The position numbers and the translations under genes are program-made. The notes under the pieces are model-generated. The model was not told the origin of the DNA. It saw only the letters and a program-made list of their open reading frames with translations, and searched no databases. Of a stretch of 64,000 nucleotides of DNA, positions 51,754-61,790 are shown in pieces; the first letter of the stretch is position 1, and each line of letters opens with the position of its first letter. This stretch comes from Candidatus Micrarchaeota archaeon (GTDB lineage Archaea > Micrarchaeota > Micrarchaeia > Anstonellales > JAHKLY01), in NCBI GenBank assembly GCA_020854825.1, contig JAHKLY010000002.1, positions 31,487 to 95,486 on the forward strand. The letters are read 5' to 3'.

Positions 51754-52710
51754 TCAATATTCAACAATAAAGCTTTCACATCCTTGTGGTTCTACCCACA
51801 TCCCAAATAAAAATAGTTTTGCATACCCAACATATGGAATTCTTAATATCACAATTCCCTTTGATTGTTGTTTTGATACAAGTGAATTACCCCTTTGATA
51901 TGTGGAAGAATGCATTTGTAAGTCAAAAATAGCATTATTATCTCCTTTTATTAAATAGTATTCACCTTGCGGTGAATTTATTTTTAAATAGACTCTATGG
52001 ATTATATCTCCAGTTAAAGCAAATAAATCCTCTTTTTTTGGTTCATAAACCATTATATCATTAGTTTTATTTAATTCATATATTTTTTCTTTGAATTCTA
52101 TATTTTTTACACAAATAGTATTAATATTAGATTTGTCTTGATACTCTCTTTTACAAGTTCCATAATTAAATTTTAATGGCCCATGCATTTCGTAATATTT
52201 TTCAGGATATATTTTAAAGTCTGTACAAAAATCAGTATTTTTATCTAAACAATATACAAATATTGATCCATTTAGGCCATATGTATTTCCTTCAATTTCT
52301 ATGATTGCTGTATTATTTATGTCATTTATATTTTCAACATATATGCTGGGAGCATTAATTTCTTGTTCTCCTTTTAATATGATCAGATCTCCTCTTTCAT
52401 AGTCAGGTAACATACTACAAGATACTATTGCATTTATAGGAATAGAAGTACCTAATAAAAATACAAGTCCAAACCATATACTTAAAGCTAATACAATGGC
52501 TATGACAATTTCTTTTATTTCATTTTTCATTCCTTTTTTAATTGTTCCTTTAACAATATCCATACCTACTATTAACAGAATGGATGATCCTCCTAAAACC
52601 GCAAAAATAACATGTCTAGTAAGTAGATATAATAAAAAAGAAATAATAAGCAGGATATAATGTAAATAATATTTTTCAATAACATCTATTTTTTTTAATA
52701 TTTTTTTCAT
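51754..52710 (-). CDS. signal peptidase I (S26/Sec11-like) with extended C-terminal domain
   Basis: SCSMLPDYERGDLIIL resembles the catalytic-Ser box SGSMEP...GDL. N-terminal TM helices. Confidence 0.5.
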   Translation of the reverse strand: MKKILKKIDVIEKYYLHYILLIISFLLYLLTRHVIFAVLGGSSILLIVGMDIVKGTIKKGMKNEIKEIVIAIVLALSIWFGLVFLLGTSIPINAIVSCSMLPDYERGDLIILKGEQEINAPSIYVENINDINNTAIIEIEGNTYGLNGSIFVYCLDKNTDFCTDFKIYPEKYYEMHGPLKFNYGTCKREYQDKSNINTICVKNIEFKEKIYELNKTNDIMVYEPKKEDLFALTGDIIHRVYLKINSPQGEYYLIKGDNNAIFDLQMHSSTYQRGNSLVSKQQSKGIVILRIPYVGYAKLFLFGMWVEPQGCESFIVEY

Positions 52711-53647: not shown

Positions 53648-54871
53648 ATGAAAGGAATTCTTATACTATCTGTAGATAGGGATAATGATTTATTTGAGAA
53701 AGCTAAGATATCCGGTCCAATTATAGGCAGGGAAGCAAACTTAAATGCAGCGAATAAATTAGCGTTAGCAGATCCTCAGGATACAGATGCAAATGCTATT
53801 TTTCAAGCAGTTAAAAAGTATGATGAATTAGGAAAAGATTATGAAGTTCAAATAGTTACTTTAACTGGGAATAAGAAACTAGGGTATGAAGCAGATAAAA
53901 CAATTGCTAATCAATTAGATAAAATATTGCAAGGGTCTTCTTTTACTTCTTGTGTTTTAGTTACAGATGGTCAACATGATGAAGAGATTATTCCAATTCT
54001 TAAATCTAGAATTAAAATAGATTCAGCTCAAATTGTAGTTATGAAACAAGCAAAAGAATTAGAGAAAACATATGTAGTTTTATTAGAAAAATTAAAGGAT
54101 CCATATTACGCAAGAATTATTTTAGGAATTCCTGCGTTATTACTTATAATGTTTGCTTTAAGTAGTTATATGAATTGGGGATGGGAACCAGTAGCAATTG
54201 TTATTGCATTATTTCTTTTAATGAGATTATTTGGGATTGATGAATATATAGTTTCAACTTCAAGACATTTTAATTTTTCAGTAGAGAATAGTAGTTTTGT
54301 GATATATTTATCTGCATTTGCAATAATACTTGTTTCATTTTGGACAACCTATCAAACATATTCAATAAATTTTATGGAGTTTGATGCAGTTAAAATTCTA
54401 GGTATGAGTTTACAATCTTTAATGAGATTATTACCTTGGGGATTATTATTATTAGTTATAGGAAAAGTATTTGATGCATATAAAGAAGGAAAAAAGATAA
54501 AAATAACAAAATACGGGGCATATATGACTTCAATTATGTTATTTTGGTTAATATTTTCAGTAGGTGCAGATTGGGTTGTTAATATTTCTCCACCTTATGT
54601 TTCATTTGGAGATTTTATTTTAGTAATTTTGATAAGTTTAATTTTGGGGTATATATGTATTTATGTAATACATAAGATAAAAGTAGATATTGTATCAAGA
54701 CTTAAACTTGAAGATAAAGAAGTTATAAATGAATATGGATCTTTTATAGGAACTGTAGTTGGGGTAGATAAGAAGAAATCTATATTAATAGTTCAATCTC
54801 CTTTTGGACAAAAGAAAAAACTTAATTTTGATTTGATATCTGAAGTTAATGAAAGAATAATAGTCAAATGA
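53648..54871 (+). CDS. archaeal membrane protein (DUF373-like: soluble N-domain + multi-TM C-domain)
   Basis: ILILSVDRDNDL N-terminus then about 7 TM helices. The family assignment is from memory. Confidence 0.4.
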   Translation: MKGILILSVDRDNDLFEKAKISGPIIGREANLNAANKLALADPQDTDANAIFQAVKKYDELGKDYEVQIVTLTGNKKLGYEADKTIANQLDKILQGSSFTSCVLVTDGQHDEEIIPILKSRIKIDSAQIVVMKQAKELEKTYVVLLEKLKDPYYARIILGIPALLLIMFALSSYMNWGWEPVAIVIALFLLMRLFGIDEYIVSTSRHFNFSVENSSFVIYLSAFAIILVSFWTTYQTYSINFMEFDAVKILGMSLQSLMRLLPWGLLLLVIGKVFDAYKEGKKIKITKYGAYMTSIMLFWLIFSVGADWVVNISPPYVSFGDFILVILISLILGYICIYVIHKIKVDIVSRLKLEDKEVINEYGSFIGTVVGVDKKKSILIVQSPFGQKKKLNFDLISEVNERIIVK

Positions 54872-54877
54872 TTTATT

Positions 54878-55858
54878 TTAAATTAATTTTATTAATCCCC
54901 TGCCTATTTCTGCTAAATCCGCACCTAACATCATAGCAAATGAACGTATAAAGGTATAAGTAATAATTAATGCTATTACTGGTGAAATAAATATTCTCAA
55001 TAATATTGCAAAAAAACTACTTTCAAAAAACATTCCAAGTATTGTTTGATAATCAATACTCATTGCCATGTTCTTAATTAAACTTGCAGTTGCTATATTA
55101 TTACCAATACATAATTCTTCTAACATTTTATTATACTCATCTAGATTTTCAATTTCAAATGCTTCTAAGGATTCTGATGTACTACCTGATACAAAAAGAG
55201 TCATTAAAAAAGCAGAGGGAAGCACAATTGCAAAACCTAATCCCATAGCAATAAACATTGCTCCTACACCCCTAGTTGGAGGAAATGCTCTTAATATAAT
55301 ACCCATGGGTAATATTATTACTGCTAGATAATCTCCAAATTTCATTACCTCAACAAAAAAATACATCCACATTACAAATATCCCTAATACGTTTATTATC
55401 CAAGTGAATGTTCCGATAATTGTATTTGGGAGTGAGGCTGCACCAGGAATAAATGTTTTACTTAATAATCCTCCCATATCAGTTCCTATTATTGAAATTT
55501 CTTTACCAAATGCAAAAAAGAAACCTGCACTAAATACATTTCTATATGTTTTTTTAATTGGCCCCAATATTTTATAAACTTCAAAAACTGCGGCATTAAC
55601 AGGGTCTGAACCAAGTACTGGTGCAGTTGAAGTTGTATGTGTTAATTCATTTGAAACTTCTTGGGTTAAATAAAGCATACCTTGAATAAATCCTATAATT
55701 GCTAAAATTATAAATGCAGTTATTAAAATTTCCATATACTCACTTTTACACCATTTTTCTAATCCTTTTAAAGAAAATGCTCTCGCCATCATATAGAATA
55801 TAGTAATTCCCCCCAAGCAAAAAATTGCCAATATTAGAGTTAATATTATCCAATCCAT
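54878..55858 (-). CDS. paralog 6 of tandem polytopic membrane protein family (R-x-F-P-x-T-R motif)
   Basis: LPMGIILRAFPPTRGVGAMFIAMG motif. C-terminal MLGADLAEIGRGLIKLI. Its start overlaps the upstream gene's stop. Confidence 0.6.
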   Translation of the reverse strand: MDWIILTLILAIFCLGGITIFYMMARAFSLKGLEKWCKSEYMEILITAFIILAIIGFIQGMLYLTQEVSNELTHTTSTAPVLGSDPVNAAVFEVYKILGPIKKTYRNVFSAGFFFAFGKEISIIGTDMGGLLSKTFIPGAASLPNTIIGTFTWIINVLGIFVMWMYFFVEVMKFGDYLAVIILPMGIILRAFPPTRGVGAMFIAMGLGFAIVLPSAFLMTLFVSGSTSESLEAFEIENLDEYNKMLEELCIGNNIATASLIKNMAMSIDYQTILGMFFESSFFAILLRIFISPVIALIITYTFIRSFAMMLGADLAEIGRGLIKLI

Positions 55859-56979
55859 TATATCATCCGTGTTAGATTTGATAAATCTATTTGTTCACCA
55901 AAGAACCTTGAAAATTCTCTCATTGATGTTGCCAATATAGCAAAATTTAATAGGGGTAAAAATAAACTACCCAAAATATTAATTGCCAACATTTTCCAAG
56001 TTGCCATAGATAATGCACTAAACATTATTTTCATAGGTTCAATTATACCAATCTTAAAAGTTATTGGTGCACTTGTATGTATATTTCCATCAAACATATC
56101 TGCAGGACTATTAATATGTAGATTAATAAATTGATTTGCTTGCATTTGTTCTGCAACAAATTCAATAATTCCTTCCCACATTCCAAATACTCCAATACCT
56201 TGTAATGCGACACTATTAATAACTAAGAGCATAGGCCAAAATAAACCCAATGCAATTGTTAATCCAATAAGTGTTCCCCCAAACCTTCTTGTAGGTTCAA
56301 AGCATCTTAGTAATATGCCAATAGGCAGGTATATAGTAAACATTCCAGCATATACATAATTAAATAACATAAGTTGGGTTATAGATGTTACAAGCATTGT
56401 TATTATTCCTATTTGTGCTATTTCAAATACTCTATTTAAACTATTTAATCCCTTTCCAGGAGTAATGCCAATACCCAAACCTATAATATCCACTGAAAAT
56501 TTAAAATTTCCAATAGTTTCTCTTTGAATATTAAAGAAAAGTATGCTTGTTAAAGAAATAGTATTCATTCTCATAAGTGTGGTTAAATAATCTTTTGCTT
56601 CTACGACCATTGAGTCATCGCCAGCACCTAGAACATTACCAAAAATCATTTTAGGAGTTAAACCTCCAGAACATAAAATAAATTCTGAAAATCCAACAAT
56701 AACGAGCAATATTAATACAGTTGCACCAACTTGTAGCATTTCATATTTTGCCCATGTTTCACCTTTTTGTATTTGCATCCCCCTACATATAAGAAATATA
56801 ATTAATAGAATTAAAAGAGAAATCATTATTGCTATATAGCAAGTGACAGCCCATGAAGACATAAATGCATTCAAATCTCCCCCACAAACATCATCTGGAA
56901 ATATATCAAATAATGCAGAATGCGACAGATTAAATAGTAGAATTATGCATAGGATAAATAAGGGAATTTTTTTGATCAT
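55858..56979 (-). CDS. paralog 5 of tandem membrane protein family
   Basis: LPIGILLRCFEPTRRFGGTLIGLT. C-terminal FFGEQIDLSNLTRMI. Signal-peptide-like N-terminus. Confidence 0.6.
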   Translation of the reverse strand: MIKKIPLFILCIILLFNLSHSALFDIFPDDVCGGDLNAFMSSWAVTCYIAIMISLLILLIIFLICRGMQIQKGETWAKYEMLQVGATVLILLVIVGFSEFILCSGGLTPKMIFGNVLGAGDDSMVVEAKDYLTTLMRMNTISLTSILFFNIQRETIGNFKFSVDIIGLGIGITPGKGLNSLNRVFEIAQIGIITMLVTSITQLMLFNYVYAGMFTIYLPIGILLRCFEPTRRFGGTLIGLTIALGLFWPMLLVINSVALQGIGVFGMWEGIIEFVAEQMQANQFINLHINSPADMFDGNIHTSAPITFKIGIIEPMKIMFSALSMATWKMLAINILGSLFLPLLNFAILATSMREFSRFFGEQIDLSNLTRMI

Positions 56980-58181
56980 ATTAATTTCACCAATTCTGCT
57001 ACATTCATATCTGAACCTAAGAATTTTCCCATTTCTTGTATAAATGTAAATGTAATGAATATATTTAATGAAGGCAATATAAAACTACCTATCATTACTA
57101 GAAAAATACCTTCTTGGAGCATAATATAAAAGGCGTCCATATATAAATCACTAATTGCTCCAGCAACCATTGGATAAAGAAGCTGCCGATTTTTAAATAT
57201 AGTGGGAGTTCCACTTGTCATAAATTCTTTAAATGATTTATATAATGGATCTATTATGGCATTTGTAATTTCTCTACCTGGCCTATTAAGAGTAGGAGGG
57301 AAAGCATAGAAATGGTCTTGTGCATAATTTATCATTTCATAAGGATATACTCCAATATATGCAGACATTATTAAATTATTGAGATTAAGCATAATTGGAT
57401 AAACAAAATATAGGCCTAGTGCAAGGGCAATTAATCCCCCCCCTACAGAACGAGTAGTTGGAAAACTTCGCAATATTAATCCCAATGGTAAAAATAAAGC
57501 AAGCATTTTATCTGAAGTAAAACATAGAATAAACATATTACCAATCCAGCTTGTTATTGCAGGTAATAAAATAACCAAAGACCAATCAGTTAGTTTAGAC
57601 ACAATGCCAAACATTGAACCAAAATCATAATTAATTCCAATCATATTAAATGGAGTGAAATTAATTTCTATTGAGAATAACCCTTCTAAAAACATATTTA
57701 TAGTTAACATATGGTATCCTAAATGCATTAGTTCTGCAGCCATTGCTTCTGAATAATAATATGCAGTTTGTAATAAAGTGCACCCCGCATTTGGATCGCT
57801 TGGGTCAGAGTATCCACATAAAGTTACATCACAATCACCTACATTTTGACAAGAAGGGTTATTTAATTTTCCAATTTGATCTAAAGGCCCTATCAATGCA
57901 AGCAATAAAACAATAAGTATGAAGGATGCACTAACTTGCCAAATTTCATTTTTTCCCCATGCACTAATATTTGGAAGGTCCACTGCTTTTCCGATTAAAA
58001 ACACACAAACAGCAATCATAAATACAAGAAAAACTCCAGTAATAGATAGTACTAACCAGTTTAATGATGAATCTTGTAGTCCAATTGTTGGGCATGTTTG
58101 AGTCGGTTGTACTAAACTAAATCCTGTGATATTATTAATACAAAGGAAAAACATAATTACTAAAATTAATTTATTATTCAT
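56976..58181 (-). CDS. paralog 4 of tandem membrane protein family
   Basis: LPLGLILRSFPTTRSVGGGLIALA. C-terminal FLGSDMNVAELVKLI. Confidence 0.6.
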   Translation of the reverse strand: MNNKLILVIMFFLCINNITGFSLVQPTQTCPTIGLQDSSLNWLVLSITGVFLVFMIAVCVFLIGKAVDLPNISAWGKNEIWQVSASFILIVLLLALIGPLDQIGKLNNPSCQNVGDCDVTLCGYSDPSDPNAGCTLLQTAYYYSEAMAAELMHLGYHMLTINMFLEGLFSIEINFTPFNMIGINYDFGSMFGIVSKLTDWSLVILLPAITSWIGNMFILCFTSDKMLALFLPLGLILRSFPTTRSVGGGLIALALGLYFVYPIMLNLNNLIMSAYIGVYPYEMINYAQDHFYAFPPTLNRPGREITNAIIDPLYKSFKEFMTSGTPTIFKNRQLLYPMVAGAISDLYMDAFYIMLQEGIFLVMIGSFILPSLNIFITFTFIQEMGKFLGSDMNVAELVKLI

Positions 58182-58189
58182 TTTTTCAC

Positions 58190-59437
58190 CTATAAGAAAT
58201 GTGATAATCCTGCAATTGATGCATCTCCTCCAAAAAATGGAGCCATTGTTTTTATTGAAGCTAAAATAGCGAATAATACAAGTAAAGGTATAATAACAGT
58301 TAGCATAGCAATTTTACCAATCATATGTAAGATACCGTCTATTTCAAGAGCCATATTCTGTCCTTTAAGATGCATAAGAAGATATGCATCAGAAATCGAA
58401 AAAACTCTATTATAATATTCAGTAAATCCTTTACCTATATTTTTAAGCGATTCAAGAGGATGAAGAAAATCAAAATGTGCATTTTCAAAATCAAATTGAG
58501 GTAACAAACTTGCACTTCCTTCAGTCATAAAATCAGCATAAGGCAGTAGTTTTTGTCCAGTCAAAGAGGTCTGTAATCCTATAAAGTTTCCTGATTCAAA
58601 CATTGCCCTATGGCCAATAATATATGGTAATGGAGCAATATAATACAGGCTAAGAGATGTAGCTATTAAAAACCCCCCCAATTTTCTAGTAAATTCAAAA
58701 CTTCTAAATACAAATCCACTAATTAATAAAACTGGAAATAAAACTTGTGCTACTATATCTACTGCATTTTTTTGAATTATATTAATAATTAAAGAATGTG
58801 ATAAAAGTTTGAATGCTTTAGCATACATTCCAAATTCTACTGAATATCCTACTCCCGGCATAATTTTTAGTATTTCTGGAAGCAACAAGAAAGGAGGTTT
58901 AGGCGCAATTACGTATCCTTGTAATAAAAATTTAAAAGATGAAAAAAAGCTTAATTGTTGGTATAATAATAACATTTGTGTCATTGTTTCTGATATCAAC
59001 CATTCTGTTCTATCTAAAAATGATAGTGTTACACATATATGAGGAGCGTAATTTCTGCCTACTACTTCAAATCCTTTTTTTGTATATAAACACTTTCCAT
59101 CTGGATTTAATGCAACACCTGCCTCTTGCATAGTCAAAGTATTGGATAATATTAAATCAATATTTGGAGTTGTATCTATTGAAGAATATGGATCTAATTG
59201 CACAATTCCTTTGGGGATGATTTCGTTATCTATAATTGGTATTGCAACAACGACAATCAAAAAGAAAAAGAATAGATTTAGAATGACTTGCCCATATTCA
59301 GTTTTTGCCTTTGCTCTTAAAGATTCGTCTTGTAATATAAATGAAAATAAATGTATTAGAACATAAATTCCAAGCATAATTAAAGATAGTACAAATGTAA
59401 GCAAAAGCCCCTGTGTTTGTAATTCTATAGGTATCAT
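58190..59437 (-). CDS. paralog 3 of tandem membrane protein family
   Basis: FPVLLISGFVFRSFEFTRKLGGFLIATS. C-terminal FFGGDASIAGLSHFL. Confidence 0.6.
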   Translation of the reverse strand: MIPIELQTQGLLLTFVLSLIMLGIYVLIHLFSFILQDESLRAKAKTEYGQVILNLFFFFLIVVVAIPIIDNEIIPKGIVQLDPYSSIDTTPNIDLILSNTLTMQEAGVALNPDGKCLYTKKGFEVVGRNYAPHICVTLSFLDRTEWLISETMTQMLLLYQQLSFFSSFKFLLQGYVIAPKPPFLLLPEILKIMPGVGYSVEFGMYAKAFKLLSHSLIINIIQKNAVDIVAQVLFPVLLISGFVFRSFEFTRKLGGFLIATSLSLYYIAPLPYIIGHRAMFESGNFIGLQTSLTGQKLLPYADFMTEGSASLLPQFDFENAHFDFLHPLESLKNIGKGFTEYYNRVFSISDAYLLMHLKGQNMALEIDGILHMIGKIAMLTVIIPLLVLFAILASIKTMAPFFGGDASIAGLSHFL

Positions 59438-60390
59438 TAATCAAACCTCTGTATTAAGAATTTTTGAAAACTATTTATAAAAGATACTGTTATTGCCATA
59501 CTTATTGTAGGTAAAAATAATCCCTGCATTAAAACAACTGACAGCATTATAAATCCATTAAATATTTCATATAGTTTTGGCTCTATTACTTGAAATGTTT
59601 TTCCCCAAGCACCTGTAAATGCATCAAATGTTGTGCTATTTGGTATTTCATCAAATATTATTTGAGTTATTGAAATCATGAAGTTATCTTGTATATCTGA
59701 AACAATATTTTCAACTATTGCTGCGTGGATTACATATGAAAATGGAAAAACAATATAAAATCCAATTGCAACTGCGATTAAAAATGAACCTGAATTTCTT
59801 GTAGTTGGAAATATTCTTAAGAAAATTCCGATTGGCAATACAAAAGGAATCATTATTGCTTTTATAATTGATAATGCAAATTGTTGTATTGCTAAACTTG
59901 CATAAAATGGACTCATTAAAGCAAATACTTTATCTAATGCTTTTGTTAAAGTACTTAAATCAAACGGAGGAAAGGTAACGTCTGCTCTTATTGGAATTCC
60001 TATCAAGGCTACTCCAGGTATGTCATTTAATCCTATCTTTATATTTATTTTAGTTAATATATCCATTCCCACCCTCCCATAGAATACAGATTTCATAGTT
60101 CCAAATGTATCAACAAGTAGGTTTTCTAAATATTCTAAAGATATAGTAAATGGGTCATTTCCAATTAATTGAGTGCTTATTTCAAATAATCCTTGTATTC
60201 CAAATATAATAAATAACAAAATAGCAATAGATACCAATATCTGATATAATTCCATTCTTGCAAAAATTTCAAATTCTTTATTATTTAATAATTTAGAAAG
60301 CAAATAAGAAATTGCAGTTAATGCTACCATAATCATTAAAGGTACGATAGAAAGTTGCAATGCAGTTATAAATGCTTGATCAAATGCCAT
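59437..60390 (-). CDS. paralog 2 of tandem membrane protein family
   Basis: LPIGIFLRIFPTTRNSGSFLIAVA. Stop/start overlap with neighbours. Confidence 0.6.
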   Translation of the reverse strand: MAFDQAFITALQLSIVPLMIMVALTAISYLLSKLLNNKEFEIFARMELYQILVSIAILLFIIFGIQGLFEISTQLIGNDPFTISLEYLENLLVDTFGTMKSVFYGRVGMDILTKINIKIGLNDIPGVALIGIPIRADVTFPPFDLSTLTKALDKVFALMSPFYASLAIQQFALSIIKAIMIPFVLPIGIFLRIFPTTRNSGSFLIAVAIGFYIVFPFSYVIHAAIVENIVSDIQDNFMISITQIIFDEIPNSTTFDAFTGAWGKTFQVIEPKLYEIFNGFIMLSVVLMQGLFLPTISMAITVSFINSFQKFLIQRFD

Positions 60391-60391
60391 A

Positions 60392-61663
60392 TTATCCCAA
60401 CTTTAATTTTTCAATTCCAAATATTTTTGTTTCTCCTCCTAAAATTCCAGAGATATTTGCAAATAAGGTTAAACAAATAATAACATCCATAAAAAAACAA
60501 ATAGCAATAAAAATAAACTTCTGTAAAACTTGATTTGCTAAAGCGGCTGTGTAATGAATTGGTTCAGCTGCAAATTCACTTAAATTAATGCCTAATGCAG
60601 CACCAGCAAGTGCAGTTGTTAATTTGGATAATTTACTTAAGGTTCCAAATAATAAATTGTTTATTGTATTGCTAATTACTTCTCCTGCTCTTATCACAGA
60701 TCTTCCAATATATGCAAAAAAGTTTTTTATTTTATCACCTAAATTTGAATTCCAATTAGTTTCTTCGTTTATATCATTTATATTATCTGTTAATGAACCA
60801 AATTCATCAATTAATATATCTCCCCCTTCAGGATAATGTTCATCCATTTTTTCCTGCATTTTTGTTTCATCTTCAAGTTTTTGTTCTAATCTTTCTTCTA
60901 ATAATGCAACAGAAATTGGATCCTCATTATCATATGATAAACCACCTAAGAACATATTGACATATATATATTGATTAAATAAAATAGTCATTGGAAAAAT
61001 GAAATAAAAAGTAATTGCTAATGCAATTAATGTAGAACCTAATCTTCTTGTTATGGGTAATGCGCGTAATATTATCCCCAATGGGAAAAATATTGTGAAT
61101 GAAGTTATTTTAATAAAATCCAATATGGAATCCATTACAGATACTAAAAAGTTTGTCATAATAACAGTTTTAGTTATATCTCCAATCATATCTGCAACTA
61201 TATTCAATCCTGCTAATGGTTGCATGCTTACACTCACTACAAAACCAACAAGACCCCCCATAGGTATGGGAACTCCAAATGTTATTCCATATTTAGAATA
61301 ACCAGATAAAATTGCACTAGTTCGTACTCCTCTTTCCGCAATATTTTGTAGATTTAAATCCAGTACTTTTAGAAACACTTTTCCTTGTGTAAAATATACG
61401 GGATCGTTTATATCTAAAGGTCCTGAATAACCTATTAATGCATAACATACTAATAATACCACATAATGAAGTAAAAACATCCCAAGAAAAACTATTAATA
61501 CAGAATAAATCAATTCTTTAAATTCTTTTTGTGCCCAGCCTTTTAATTGAGGAAATCCTCCCAAAGTAGATATTAAATATGCAAATAAAGCACCGCCTAG
61601 ACTTATCATTAATCCTATAAATACTAGTACATATGCTTGTGAACTAAATACCATATAATTCAT
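60392..61663 (-). CDS. paralog 1 (first gene) of tandem membrane protein family, with acidic insertion
   Basis: FPLGIILRALPITRRLGSTLIALA motif. E/D-rich insertion (EERLEQKLEDETKMQEKMDEH). C-terminal FGIEKLKLG. Confidence 0.6.
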   Translation of the reverse strand: MNYMVFSSQAYVLVFIGLMISLGGALFAYLISTLGGFPQLKGWAQKEFKELIYSVLIVFLGMFLLHYVVLLVCYALIGYSGPLDINDPVYFTQGKVFLKVLDLNLQNIAERGVRTSAILSGYSKYGITFGVPIPMGGLVGFVVSVSMQPLAGLNIVADMIGDITKTVIMTNFLVSVMDSILDFIKITSFTIFFPLGIILRALPITRRLGSTLIALAITFYFIFPMTILFNQYIYVNMFLGGLSYDNEDPISVALLEERLEQKLEDETKMQEKMDEHYPEGGDILIDEFGSLTDNINDINEETNWNSNLGDKIKNFFAYIGRSVIRAGEVISNTINNLLFGTLSKLSKLTTALAGAALGINLSEFAAEPIHYTAALANQVLQKFIFIAICFFMDVIICLTLFANISGILGGETKIFGIEKLKLG

Positions 61664-61724
61664 TTAATTGTGTTAAATATATAAAGGTTTATTTATCGGG
61701 CATTTATAAAGAAATAGTATAAAT

Positions 61725-61790
61725 CGCTCAGTCCGCTCGTCAATCCTCATTGGCTTGCGCCTTAGTGATCACCTTCGTCCTCATTGCGAT
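61725..61790 (-). ncRNA. candidate box C/D-like sRNA or structured 5' leader, upstream of the membrane-paralog operon
   Basis: Minus strand: AUCGC-AAUGAGGA-[12 nt CGAAGGUGAUCA]-CUAA-GGCGCAAGCC-AAUGAGGA-[12 nt UUGACGAGCGGA]-CUGA-GCG. Two C-like boxes (UGAGGA variant of UGAUGA), D'/D boxes, two 12-nt spacers, terminal CGC/GCG stem. It is the only GC-rich intergenic island in the window. Confidence 0.3.

What the first reader, a model, noticed from the sequence alone, without database searches (positions are those of the whole stretch)
54878..61663. Operon of six tandem, translationally coupled paralogous polytopic membrane proteins with a shared R-x-F-P-x-T-R-x-x-G-G motif
Six consecutive minus-strand genes (423, 317, 415, 401, 373 and 326 aa) are clear paralogs. 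Each has an N-terminal TM helix followed by a conserved (K/N)-x-E-(W/Y) segment, a variable exposed region, and a hydrophobic core carrying the nearly invariant LP(I/L/M)GI(I/L)LR-x-F-(P/E)-x-TR-x-x-G(G/S)-x-LIA motif at a helix-loop boundary. Each also ends in a conserved C-terminal F-x-G-x-D...L...(L/M)I. Stops and starts overlap (shared nucleotides at 55858 and 59437, a 4-nt overlap at 56976..56979, and a 1-nt gap at 60390/60392), implying stoichiometric co-translation into one hetero-oligomeric membrane complex. I cannot place the family. I suspect it resembles VirB6/TrbL-type channel components, which occur as tandem paralog arrays in obligate symbionts such as Rickettsia. In a reduced, probably host-associated archaeon, a six-paralog membrane machine could be a cell-cell contact or transfer channel, or a transporter.
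Basis: seen in the sequence. Interest (0 to 1): 0.85.

Follow-up and report, generated by a model that had tools for sequence, protein, structure and literature searches.

The report
Six-paralog membrane core of Micrarchaeal T4SS-like machine
Six adjacent genes encode six related but non-interchangeable membrane proteins that occur in nearly all Micrarchaeota (tiny, host-dependent archaea) together with a conjugation-type pilin and a VirB4-type ATPase. They most likely form the membrane channel of an archaeal type-IV-secretion-like machine that I could not find described in the literature held here.

Summary
Window 54878-61663 (-) holds six tightly packed paralogous genes (423, 317, 415, 401, 373 and 326 aa). 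Each protein has about 5 TM helices and a near-invariant G-x3-R-x5-R-x2-G...P motif in a cytoplasmic loop. No Pfam or NCBIfam model matches them.

The array is not a local oddity. The family is confined to Micrarchaeota, in about 129 of 167 genera. All 22 arrays I examined, from 14 genomes, have exactly six genes. These fall into six ancient orthogroups in one fixed order, p1 to p6. The 828-kb genome carries two such arrays.

In other orders of the phylum the array sits inside one operon: VirB2/T4SS-type pilins, then p1-p6, then a 2-TM protein whose soluble domain has the VirB4 N-terminal fold, then a VirB4/HerA-type ATPase. In this genome those modules are dispersed, but they co-occur perfectly across 121 genomes.

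Verdict: the six proteins are VirB6-like subunits of a chromosomal T4SS-derived apparatus comparable to Ced/Ted. They probably form a six-component hetero-oligomer. Substrate and stoichiometry are untested.

The parts
60392..61663 (-). p1 (423 aa), first gene of the hexad; orthogroup 1
   Evidence: ORF. Family HMM E 6e-50. The p1 clade is monophyletic, 22/22, support 0.989.
59437..60390 (-). p2 (317 aa), orthogroup 2. It is the shortest subunit and lacks the C-terminal LGxD..L..LI helix.
   Evidence: support 0.99.
58190..59437 (-). p3 (415 aa), orthogroup 3. This position carries large Cys-rich extracellular insertions in other arrays.
   Evidence: support 0.998.
56976..58181 (-). p4 (401 aa), orthogroup 4. 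It has an extra N-terminal signal-like hydrophobic segment.
   Evidence: support 0.89.
55858..56979 (-). p5 (373 aa), orthogroup 5. It has an extra N-terminal signal-like segment. Extracellular Cys32 is invariant and Cys103 nearly invariant among orthologues.
   Evidence: (support 0.999).
54878..55858 (-). p6 (326 aa), orthogroup 6. This is the protein that was modelled.
   Evidence: support 0.995. AlphaFold2 gave pLDDT 83.2 and pTM 0.78. The best structural matches are TrwI/VirB6 and DotA.
55247..55312 (-). The family motif LPxGIxLRxFPxTRxxGGxLIA in p6 (residues about 183-204), at the TM3 / cytoplasmic loop / TM4 boundary. The equivalent segment is present in all six genes.
   Evidence: K+R enrichment of this loop is 0.14 against 0.055 in the extracellular regions.
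61664..61700 (-). Putative archaeal promoter: TATA-like TTTATATA about 15-25 nt upstream of the p1 ATG. Not tested.
   Evidence: Read directly from the sequence. The bacterial-type promoter scan was uninformative.

Best explanation
The six genes encode six distinct, anciently diverged polytopic membrane proteins. Each has the N-terminus outside, 5 TM helices and the C-terminus inside, with two hypervariable, Cys-bearing extracellular regions and conserved cytoplasmic loops. Together they form the VirB6-like membrane core of a chromosomal, T4SS-derived apparatus that is almost universal in Micrarchaeota.

The full machine, seen as one operon in other orders of the phylum, consists of:
- 1-3 VirB2/T4SS-type pilins with signal peptides
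- p1-p6
- one or two 2-TM proteins that carry the VirB4 N-terminal domain (a VirB3-like anchor fused to VirB4-NTD)
- a separate VirB4/HerA-type ATPase with intact Walker A and B motifs

In this genome the modules are dispersed:
- arrays at C2 (this window) and C3
- the ATPase module at C4:61223-63627
- pilins at the ends of C3 and C7

What is shown:
- paralogy, the conserved motif and the topology
- six orthogroups in a fixed order
- phyletic co-occurrence and physical linkage with the pilin and VirB4 modules
- the VirB4-NTD fold of the 272-aa protein

What is inferred:
- The six proteins co-assemble, plausibly 1:1:1:1:1:1, into the channel or platform on which the ATPase docks. Docking would use the conserved cytoplasmic loops (KxEW, RxFPxTRxxGG, and the C-terminal amphipathic helix).
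- The pilins are extracted and polymerised through or from this platform.
- The variable ectodomains, and in the second array the adjacent 1640-aa Cys-rich protein, face the host.
- The apparatus moves DNA or another macromolecule between the Micrarchaeote and its host or kin, as Ced/Ted do in Thermoproteota.
For: 1. The family has 2946 representative clusters but no Pfam or NCBIfam model.
2. It is confined to Micrarchaeota: about 129 of 167 genera and fewer than 3 carriers in each of three other phyla. It is present in 41/41 genomes of the window's own order and in 111/121 of a phylum sample.
3. All 22 arrays from 14 genomes have exactly six genes. A maximum-likelihood tree gives six clades that equal the gene positions, each 22/22 monophyletic with support 0.89-0.999. 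In a leave-group-out HMM test, 70 of 72 proteins score best on the HMM of their own position.
4. 91 of 105 intra-array junctions overlap or are 15 nt or shorter.
5. In G119, G043, G099, G135, G107 and G118 the operon reads pilin(s), p1-p6, 2x 270-aa protein, ATPase, all on one strand.
6. The ATPase lies within 10 kb of the array in 63 of 135 carriers, against 3 at random places (18/33, 42/90 and 0/9 by likeness band). In the reverse count it is 48 of 132 against 3 (39/51, 6/15, <3/9 and 3/54 by band).
7. The 272-aa protein is found in exactly the same 111 genomes as the array and is missing from the same 10.
9. The ATPase matches AAA_10, DUF87 and TraG P-loop. Its longest match to a solved structure is the VirB4 C-terminal domain 4ag5. 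It has Walker A GITGSGKS and Walker B LVVLDE.
10. A pilin of this genome scores above the Pfam cut-off for T4SS_pilin (27.4 against 26.6 bits). 7 of 8 pilin-like proteins match T4SS_pilin and 3 of 8 match TrbC/VirB2.
12. The topology (N-out, 5 TM, large central extracytoplasmic loop, C-in) equals the published A. tumefaciens VirB6 topology. That comparison rests on my own knowledge of Jakubowski et al. 2004.
13. An ESM Atlas neighbour cluster of Micrarchaeal proteins carries Pfam CedA1 in 23% of its members. This is a lead only.
Against: - There is no sequence-level link to VirB6. The TrbL PF04610 HMM finds nothing in the genome. hhalign against a TrwI alignment gives probability 0.2-0.3. A profile search of PDB sequences is negative.
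- Known VirB6 and DotA assemblies are homo-pentamers, not hetero-hexamers.
- No coupling protein (VirD4) or second TraG-like ATPase was found in the genome, so DNA transfer is not implied.
- In this genome the array is not adjacent to any other T4SS-like gene. Its neighbours are housekeeping genes.
- The phyletic co-occurrence rests on few independent events: the 10 genomes that lack both belong to 5 families.
- There are no expression data.
Confidence: 0.7

Rival explanations
1. The six proteins belong to the T4SS-like machine but are not VirB6 homologues. They would be a Micrarchaeota-specific invention that does other jobs, for example envelope-spanning scaffold, pilus base or adhesin platform, standing in for the VirB5/B8/B10-type parts that archaea lack. 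The real channel would be formed by something else.
For: No sequence or profile link to TrbL/VirB6. Fold scores are weak. Large, hypervariable, Cys-bearing ectodomains with insertions of up to about 1000 aa suggest surface or adhesion roles.
Against: They are the only polytopic membrane proteins in the conserved operon, so there is no other candidate for a channel. TrwI/VirB6 and DotA are ranks 1-2 of 48,161 chains, and TrwI aligns over nearly its full length. The topology matches VirB6.
Confidence: 0.17
2. The paralogs are alternative, interchangeable versions of one subunit, kept for host-range or antigenic variation as proposed for the Rickettsiales VirB6 and Bartonella TrwI/TrwL amplifications. 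They would not be co-assembling parts of one complex.
For: Tandem VirB6 and pilin amplification is known in host-associated bacteria (PMC12102498 cites Bartonella and Anaplasma). The ectodomains are the least conserved parts. Genomes of the window's own order carry 2-3 whole arrays.
Against: Variation-driven amplification gives lineage-specific copy numbers and recent duplicates. Here there are exactly six genes in all 22 arrays and six orthogroups older than the sampled orders, always in the same order. Each position has its own features, for example p2 always lacks the C-terminal helix. Tight translational coupling fits co-production. Variation may still apply between whole arrays.
Confidence: 0.08
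3. The array is an unrelated membrane transporter or permease complex (ABC-2/FtsX-like or other) whose linkage to T4SS-like genes is incidental.
For: The proteins are polytopic helical membrane proteins. A weak, non-significant PDB profile hit to an ABC transporter TM region has E 0.056.
Against: No Pfam or NCBIfam transporter model matches. No ABC ATPase or substrate-binding gene lies next to any array. Linkage to the VirB4 module is 48-63 carriers against 3 at random, and the phyletic profiles are identical.
Confidence: 0.03

Closest known systems
VirB6/TrbL family (TrwI of plasmid R388, PDB 7o3v/8rt9; VirB6 of A. tumefaciens)
   Same: A polytopic inner-membrane protein with the N-terminus outside, 5 TM helices, a large central extracytoplasmic loop and the C-terminus inside. 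It is encoded with a VirB2 pilin and a VirB4 ATPase. It is the best structural match of the p6 model and aligns end to end.
   Different: No detectable sequence or profile similarity. TrwI is a single gene that forms a homo-pentamer capped by VirB5. Here there are six non-equivalent paralogs in a fixed order and no VirB5, B8, B9 or B10. The conserved motif G-x3-R-x5-R-x2-G...P is specific to this family.
Ced and Ted DNA-import systems of Thermoproteota (CedA/TedA, CedA1/TedC, CedB/TedB; PMC9905601)
   Same: A chromosomal, apparently domesticated archaeal T4SS derivative built from only a VirB2-like pilin, a VirB6-like polytopic protein and a VirB4-like ATPase. It has no coupling protein. The pilins carry signal peptides, as TedC does.
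   Different: Ced and Ted have one CedA/TedA gene with 6-7 TM helices, not six paralogs. VirB4 is not split into a membrane-anchored N-terminal domain and a separate ATPase. The family HMM finds no carrier in Thermoproteota. The function here is unknown.
Tandem VirB6 paralog arrays of Rickettsiales (rvhB6a-e) and the TrwI/TrwL amplifications of Bartonella
   Same: Several tandem VirB6-like genes in a reduced, host-dependent organism. The extracytoplasmic parts are variable.
   Different: Those are lineage-specific expansions with variable copy number (my own knowledge, and PMC12102498 for Bartonella and Anaplasma). Here the copy number is exactly six, with position-specific orthology across a whole phylum.
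T4SS of Patescibacteria/CPR (PMC12102498)
   Same: A minimal monoderm-type T4SS (VirB4, VirB3, VirB6, arrays of VirB2-like pilins) retained in nearly all members of an ultrasmall, epibiotic lineage with reduced genomes.
   Different: It is bacterial, its components are detectable with the standard VirB6/PrgH profiles, and it has a single VirB6.
DotA of the Legionella Dot/Icm T4SS (PDB 9ngy, DotA-IcmX protochannel)
   Different: rmsd is 8.2 A and identity 7%. DotA is much larger (857 residues modelled) and forms a homo-oligomer with IcmX.

Membership tests
TrbL/VirB6 (Pfam PF04610) | Match to the family HMM | tested here: not met
   No Pfam hit for any of the 12 paralogs of this genome. PF04610 searched over the whole genome in six frames gave 0 matches at E<=1.
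TrbL/VirB6 (Pfam PF04610) | Profile-profile similarity to bona fide VirB6 (TrwI alignment) | tested here: not met
   hhalign of A2 (67 sequences) against A3 (27 TrwI-like sequences) gave probability 0.2. The motif region alone gave probability 0.3. Caveat: A3 is narrow (all sequences >=51% identical to TrwI) and no secondary-structure scoring was used.
TrbL/VirB6 (Pfam PF04610) | Fold shared with solved VirB6 (TrwI) | tested here: inconclusive
TrbL/VirB6 (Pfam PF04610) | Topology: periplasmic N-terminus, 5 TM helices, large central extracytoplasmic loop, cytoplasmic C-terminus | tested here: met
   The hydropathy scan and AlphaFold helices give 5 TM helices. K+R fraction is 0.16 and 0.14 in loops 1 and 2 against 0.055 in the two large regions, and Cys is confined to the large regions. 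The reference topology is from my own knowledge of the A. tumefaciens VirB6 literature.
TrbL/VirB6 (Pfam PF04610) | Encoded together with a VirB4 ATPase and a VirB2 pilin | tested here: met
   A single operon in six genomes. Neighbour counts are 63/135 and 48/132 against 3 at random. The two are not adjacent in this genome.
Minimal (monoderm/archaeal-type) T4SS | VirB4 ATPase: N-terminal domain plus C-terminal P-loop domain | tested here: met
Minimal (monoderm/archaeal-type) T4SS | VirB2-type pilin | tested here: met
   PF18895 T4SS_pilin at 27.4 bits against a cut-off of 26.6 for the C7 copy. 7 of 8 members match it and 3 of 8 match TrbC/VirB2 below the cut-off.
Conjugative T4SS | Coupling protein (VirD4/TraG) and relaxase | tested here: not met
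   Only one AAA_10/DUF87/TraG-like ATPase was found in the 97.6%-complete genome. Relaxases were not searched.
Ced/Ted systems | Sequence relationship to CedA/TedA or CedA1 | tested here: inconclusive
   The family HMM finds no Thermoproteota carrier at 40 bits. Pfam PF27251 (CedA1) is not in the library on hand. The only link is an ESM Atlas lead: a neighbouring Micrarchaeal cluster in which 23% of members carry CedA1. No CedA or TedA sequence could be obtained by reference.
Ced/Ted systems | DNA import between cells | not testable with these tools
   This needs genetics in a co-culture.
   No Pfam or NCBIfam match. No ABC ATPase flanks any of the 22 arrays.

The most novel reading that the evidence does not exclude
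The six orthogroups assemble 1:1:1:1:1:1, in gene order, into a pseudo-six-fold hetero-hexameric VirB6-like channel that is symmetry-matched to a hexameric VirB4. This would be an architecture unknown in any T4SS, where VirB6 and DotA are homo-pentamers. The machine, with exchangeable whole arrays that present different ectodomains, would be the conduit through which Micrarchaeota attach to hosts and take up DNA or other macromolecules from them. That would make it the lineage-defining host-interaction organelle of a DPANN phylum.
Probability: 0.3. Interest if true: 0.85.

Novelty: new variant of a known kind. Interest (0 to 1): 0.72.

Why it matters
Micrarchaeota are ultrasmall DPANN archaea that depend on hosts, and the molecular basis of that dependence is largely unknown.

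A near-universal, chromosomally fixed T4SS-derived apparatus gives a concrete, testable candidate for the contact or transfer organelle. It takes up 12 of the genes of an 828-kb genome for its membrane core alone. It parallels the T4SS that is retained in Patescibacteria and reported there as essential for epibiotic growth (PMC12102498).

It would extend the archaeal Ced/Ted type of domesticated conjugation machinery (PMC9905601) from Thermoproteota to DPANN.

For T4SS biology, the fixed hexad of non-equivalent VirB6-like subunits and the VirB4 split into a membrane-anchored N-terminal domain plus an ATPase are new architectural variants. They bear on how the channel is matched to the hexameric motor.

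The work also defines a large unannotated protein family (2946 clusters at 50% identity) that has no Pfam model.

Tried and rejected
- Pfam and NCBIfam scans of all paralogs gave nothing.
- A profile search of PDB sequences gave only non-significant hits to ABC-transporter TM regions.
- The TrbL HMM over the genome gave nothing.
- PF27251 CedA1 is not in the local library.
- hhalign against a TrwI/VirB6 alignment, whole length and motif region, gave nothing. By eye the family motif (P-x-G-I-x-L-R-x-F-P-x-T-R) resembles the TrwI motif (G-P-x-F-I-x-A-L-L-W-Q-P-T-x-R). The profile comparison does not support that resemblance, so I do not use it as evidence.
- The search for related loci in genome contigs failed. 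The alignments were too divergent for pattern design, and the single-protein query found no relative.
- Complex prediction on p5+p6 with orthologue alignments gave no verdict: score 0.12 against a mark of 0.32, and the controls were not run. This is neither for nor against binding.
- The sigma-70-type promoter and terminator scan found fewer sites than in shuffles. It is not informative for an archaeon.
- Sequencing-run search: no RNA holder is listed. The only holders are DNA contigs from sludge metagenomes, so there are no expression data.
- Pairwise BLAST between the two arrays of this genome does not by itself resolve positional orthology. The tree and the leave-out HMM test do.
- Literature searches found no description of this array or of a T4SS-like system in Micrarchaeota. 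The library lacks most subscription journals, so prior description cannot be excluded.

Full report
**Observation**

Window 54878-61663 holds six consecutive minus-strand ORFs of 423, 317, 415, 401, 373 and 326 aa, at exactly the coordinates given.

The junctions are a 1-nt gap (60391), a shared nucleotide (59437), an 8-nt gap (58182-58189), a 4-nt overlap (56976-56979) and a shared nucleotide (55858).

Pairwise BLASTP E-values among the six run from 1e-4 to 5e-12, apart from one weak pair. The six-way alignment has E47, G196, R200, T205, R206, G209 and P224 invariant.

None of the six matches any Pfam or NCBIfam model.

**Topology**

A hydropathy scan and an AlphaFold2 model of the last protein (pLDDT 83.2, pTM 0.78) give five TM helices.

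In 132 family members the TM1-TM2 and TM3-TM4 loops are rich in K+R (0.16 and 0.14). The two large variable regions are not (0.055), and those regions hold nearly all the cysteines.

The topology is therefore N-out, C-in. The KxEW segment, the LPxGIxLRxFPxTRxxGG motif and the C-terminal amphipathic helix all lie on the cytoplasmic face. Those cytoplasmic parts are the most conserved, and the ectodomains the least.

**Organism and distribution**

The window lies in an 828-kb, 97.6%-complete genome of seven contigs, at about 28% G+C.

Named relatives of the proteins come from Micrarchaeota/Micrarchaeia, which NCBI calls Microcaldota. The flanking genes are archaeal housekeeping genes: RpoL, Csl4, PCNA, RIO kinase and Trm5.

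The genome has exactly 12 family members in two arrays of six. The second array is at C3:77389-84671 (L009:7390-14672) and is followed by a 1640-aa Cys-rich secreted protein.

The family has 2946 representative clusters at 50% identity. It is found in 41/41 genomes of the window's own order and in 111/121 genomes sampled across the phylum. In a census of 36,145 genera it occurs in about 129 of 167 Micrarchaeota genera, with fewer than 3 carriers in each of three other phyla.

**A fixed hexad**

I fetched 21 further arrays from 13 other genomes, spanning several orders. Every array has exactly six family genes. One array has a gene split in two.

A maximum-likelihood tree of the 132 proteins resolves six clades. 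Each clade contains exactly the genes at one position in transcription order (22/22), with support 0.89-0.999.

As an independent check I built six positional HMMs while leaving out a whole group of arrays. 70 of 72 left-out proteins scored best on their own position's HMM, where chance would give one in six. The two exceptions are near-ties.

91 of 105 intra-array junctions overlap or are 15 nt or shorter.

The six-fold paralogy therefore predates the sampled diversity of the phylum. The gene order is frozen, and additional arrays arose by whole-array duplication. This pattern is expected for six non-redundant parts of one assembly. It is not expected for copy-number variation of one subunit.

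**Context that identifies the machine**

In G119, G043, G099, G135, G107 and G118 the array is embedded in one co-directional operon:
- 1-3 small proteins of 104-139 aa, each with a signal peptide and two hydrophobic helices
- p1-p6
- two proteins of about 270 aa, each with two N-terminal TM helices
- a protein of about 512 aa
- a 99-aa ORF

The components were identified as follows.

- **Small proteins.** They match T4SS_pilin (PF18895) in 7 of 8 cases and TrbC/VirB2 (PF04956) in 3 of 8. A copy from this genome scores above the curated cut-off, 27.4 against 26.6 bits.
- **The ~512-aa protein.** It is 58-60% identical to a 524-aa protein of this genome at C4:61223-62797. That protein matches AAA_10, DUF87 and TraG P-loop and has Walker A and B motifs. 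Its longest match to a solved structure is the VirB4 C-terminal domain 4ag5.

VirB4 is thus split into a membrane-anchored N-terminal domain and a separate ATPase.

**Linkage and co-occurrence**

The 272-aa protein is found in exactly the same 111 of 121 genomes as the array. It is not found in the same 10, which belong to 5 families. These are few independent events.

Across genera, the ATPase lies within 10 kb of the array in 63 of 135 carriers, against 3 at random places. By likeness band the figures are 18/33, 42/90 and 0/9.

In the reverse count the array lies within 10 kb of the 272-aa family in 48 of 132 carriers, against 3 at random. By band the figures are 39/51, 6/15, <3/9 and 3/54.

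The modules are therefore linked in distant orders and dispersed in the window's own order.

In this genome the pilin genes (at least three copies) sit at the ends of contigs C3 and C7, next to giant secreted proteins.

**Are the six proteins VirB6-like?**

Sequence methods say nothing. The TrbL HMM finds no match. Profile-profile comparison with a TrwI alignment built from R388 TrwI gives probability 0.2-0.3.

Structure gives a weak but consistent signal:
- Foldseek lists TrwI/VirB6 at probability 0.60, with nothing below E 1e-3.

Three further points make VirB6-like the best reading, and I give homology itself about 0.55-0.65:
- The predicted topology equals that reported for A. tumefaciens VirB6 (my own knowledge).
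- These are the only polytopic membrane proteins in an operon that otherwise holds VirB2-, VirB3/4N- and VirB4-like genes.
- An ESM Atlas lead points to CedA1-annotated Micrarchaeal relatives.

**Mechanism proposed**

Shown: composition, conservation, linkage and topology.

Inferred:
- The six subunits co-assemble into the membrane channel or platform.
- Their conserved cytoplasmic loops dock the VirB3/VirB4N-ATPase motor.
- Pilins are extracted from the membrane and polymerised on this platform.
- The variable, disulfide-capable ectodomains contact the host. In the second array type the adjacent giant Cys-rich protein, conserved in 4 loci, would do so too.

No coupling protein was found. The cargo, whether DNA as in Ced/Ted or something else, is therefore open.

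A complex prediction for p5+p6 gave no verdict.

**Comparison and novelty**

The closest described systems are the Ced/Ted DNA-import machines of Thermoproteota, which combine a VirB2-like pilin, a VirB6-like CedA/TedA and a VirB4-like ATPase (PMC9905601). The minimal T4SS of Patescibacteria is also close (PMC12102498).

This system differs in four ways:
- a frozen hexad of non-equivalent VirB6-like subunits
- a split VirB4
- whole-array duplications
- restriction to Micrarchaeota

Seven full-text searches found no description of it, within the limits of the held library.

I rate it a new variant of a known kind. Sequence membership in TrbL/VirB6 is not met, and the hetero-oligomer remains an inference.

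Noticed in passing
window 61726-61788 (-): A G+C-rich ~60-nt stretch lies between the DNA-alkylation-repair gene and p1. Its box-like motifs (AUGAGGA ... UGAU ... AUGAGGA ... CUGA) suggest an archaeal C/D-box sRNA. Rfam sR1 (RF01152) aligns over the full model length but scores only 11.9 bits, E 0.82.
   Followed up: partly
window 51754-52710 (-): A 318-aa membrane protein with an SxSMxP...GD motif (by eye) and a weak Peptidase_S24 hit (E 0.0076). It may be a divergent signal peptidase I, about 2 kb from the array. The pilin-like proteins carry signal peptides.
   Followed up: partly
L009:7390-19595 (G000 C3:77389-89594): The second six-gene array of the same genome. Its p3 (664 aa) carries a ~330-aa Cys-rich (CxxC-rich) extracellular insertion. 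The array is followed directly by a 1640-aa Cys-rich secreted protein with no Pfam match. Homologues of that protein (1294-1614 aa) follow the same array type in three other genomes.
   Followed up: partly
L076 (G000 C7:18000-30598) and L077 (G000 C3:255000-274482): There are at least three T4SS-pilin-like genes at the ends of contigs C7 and C3. Two share near-identical sequence, which probably broke the assembly there. Nearby are giant secreted proteins of 1800, 4024 and 701 aa.
   Followed up: partly
L041:1485-4628 (G043): The VirB4-like ATPase here is 1047 aa. The orthologous ATPase sequence is interrupted after about residue 74 by a ~510-aa insertion, possibly an intein.
   Followed up: no
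L040:14284-14583 and the equivalent ORFs in L041, L042, L045 and L079: A 99-aa ORF directly after the ATPase is homologous to the ATPase's own C-terminal ~98 residues (43-50% identity to G000 residues 426-523). In some loci a ~120-aa Zn-ribbon-like protein follows, related to G000 C4:60796-61212.
   Followed up: no
L078:7614-11002 (G081): In a genome of the window's own order, a single family member, not a hexad, precedes a second copy of the VirB3/VirB4N protein and a second ATPase.
   Followed up: no
L040:378-1913, L041:14621-16132, L045:11370-12887: A PMT_2-type dolichyl-phosphate-mannose protein mannosyltransferase is conserved four genes upstream of the operon in three genomes. It may glycosylate the pilins or ectodomains.
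   Followed up: no
census: Rare carriers (<3 genera each) of the array family occur in Altiarchaeota, Hydrothermarchaeota and Thermococci. Rare carriers of the VirB3/VirB4N family occur in Altiarchaeota and Nanobdellota. These could be gene transfer, bin contamination or chance.
   Followed up: no
window 53648-54871 (+): A DUF373 membrane protein (E 2.6e-80) converges on the 3' end of the array, only 6 nt from the p6 stop. This neighbour is not conserved next to arrays in other genomes.
   Followed up: partly
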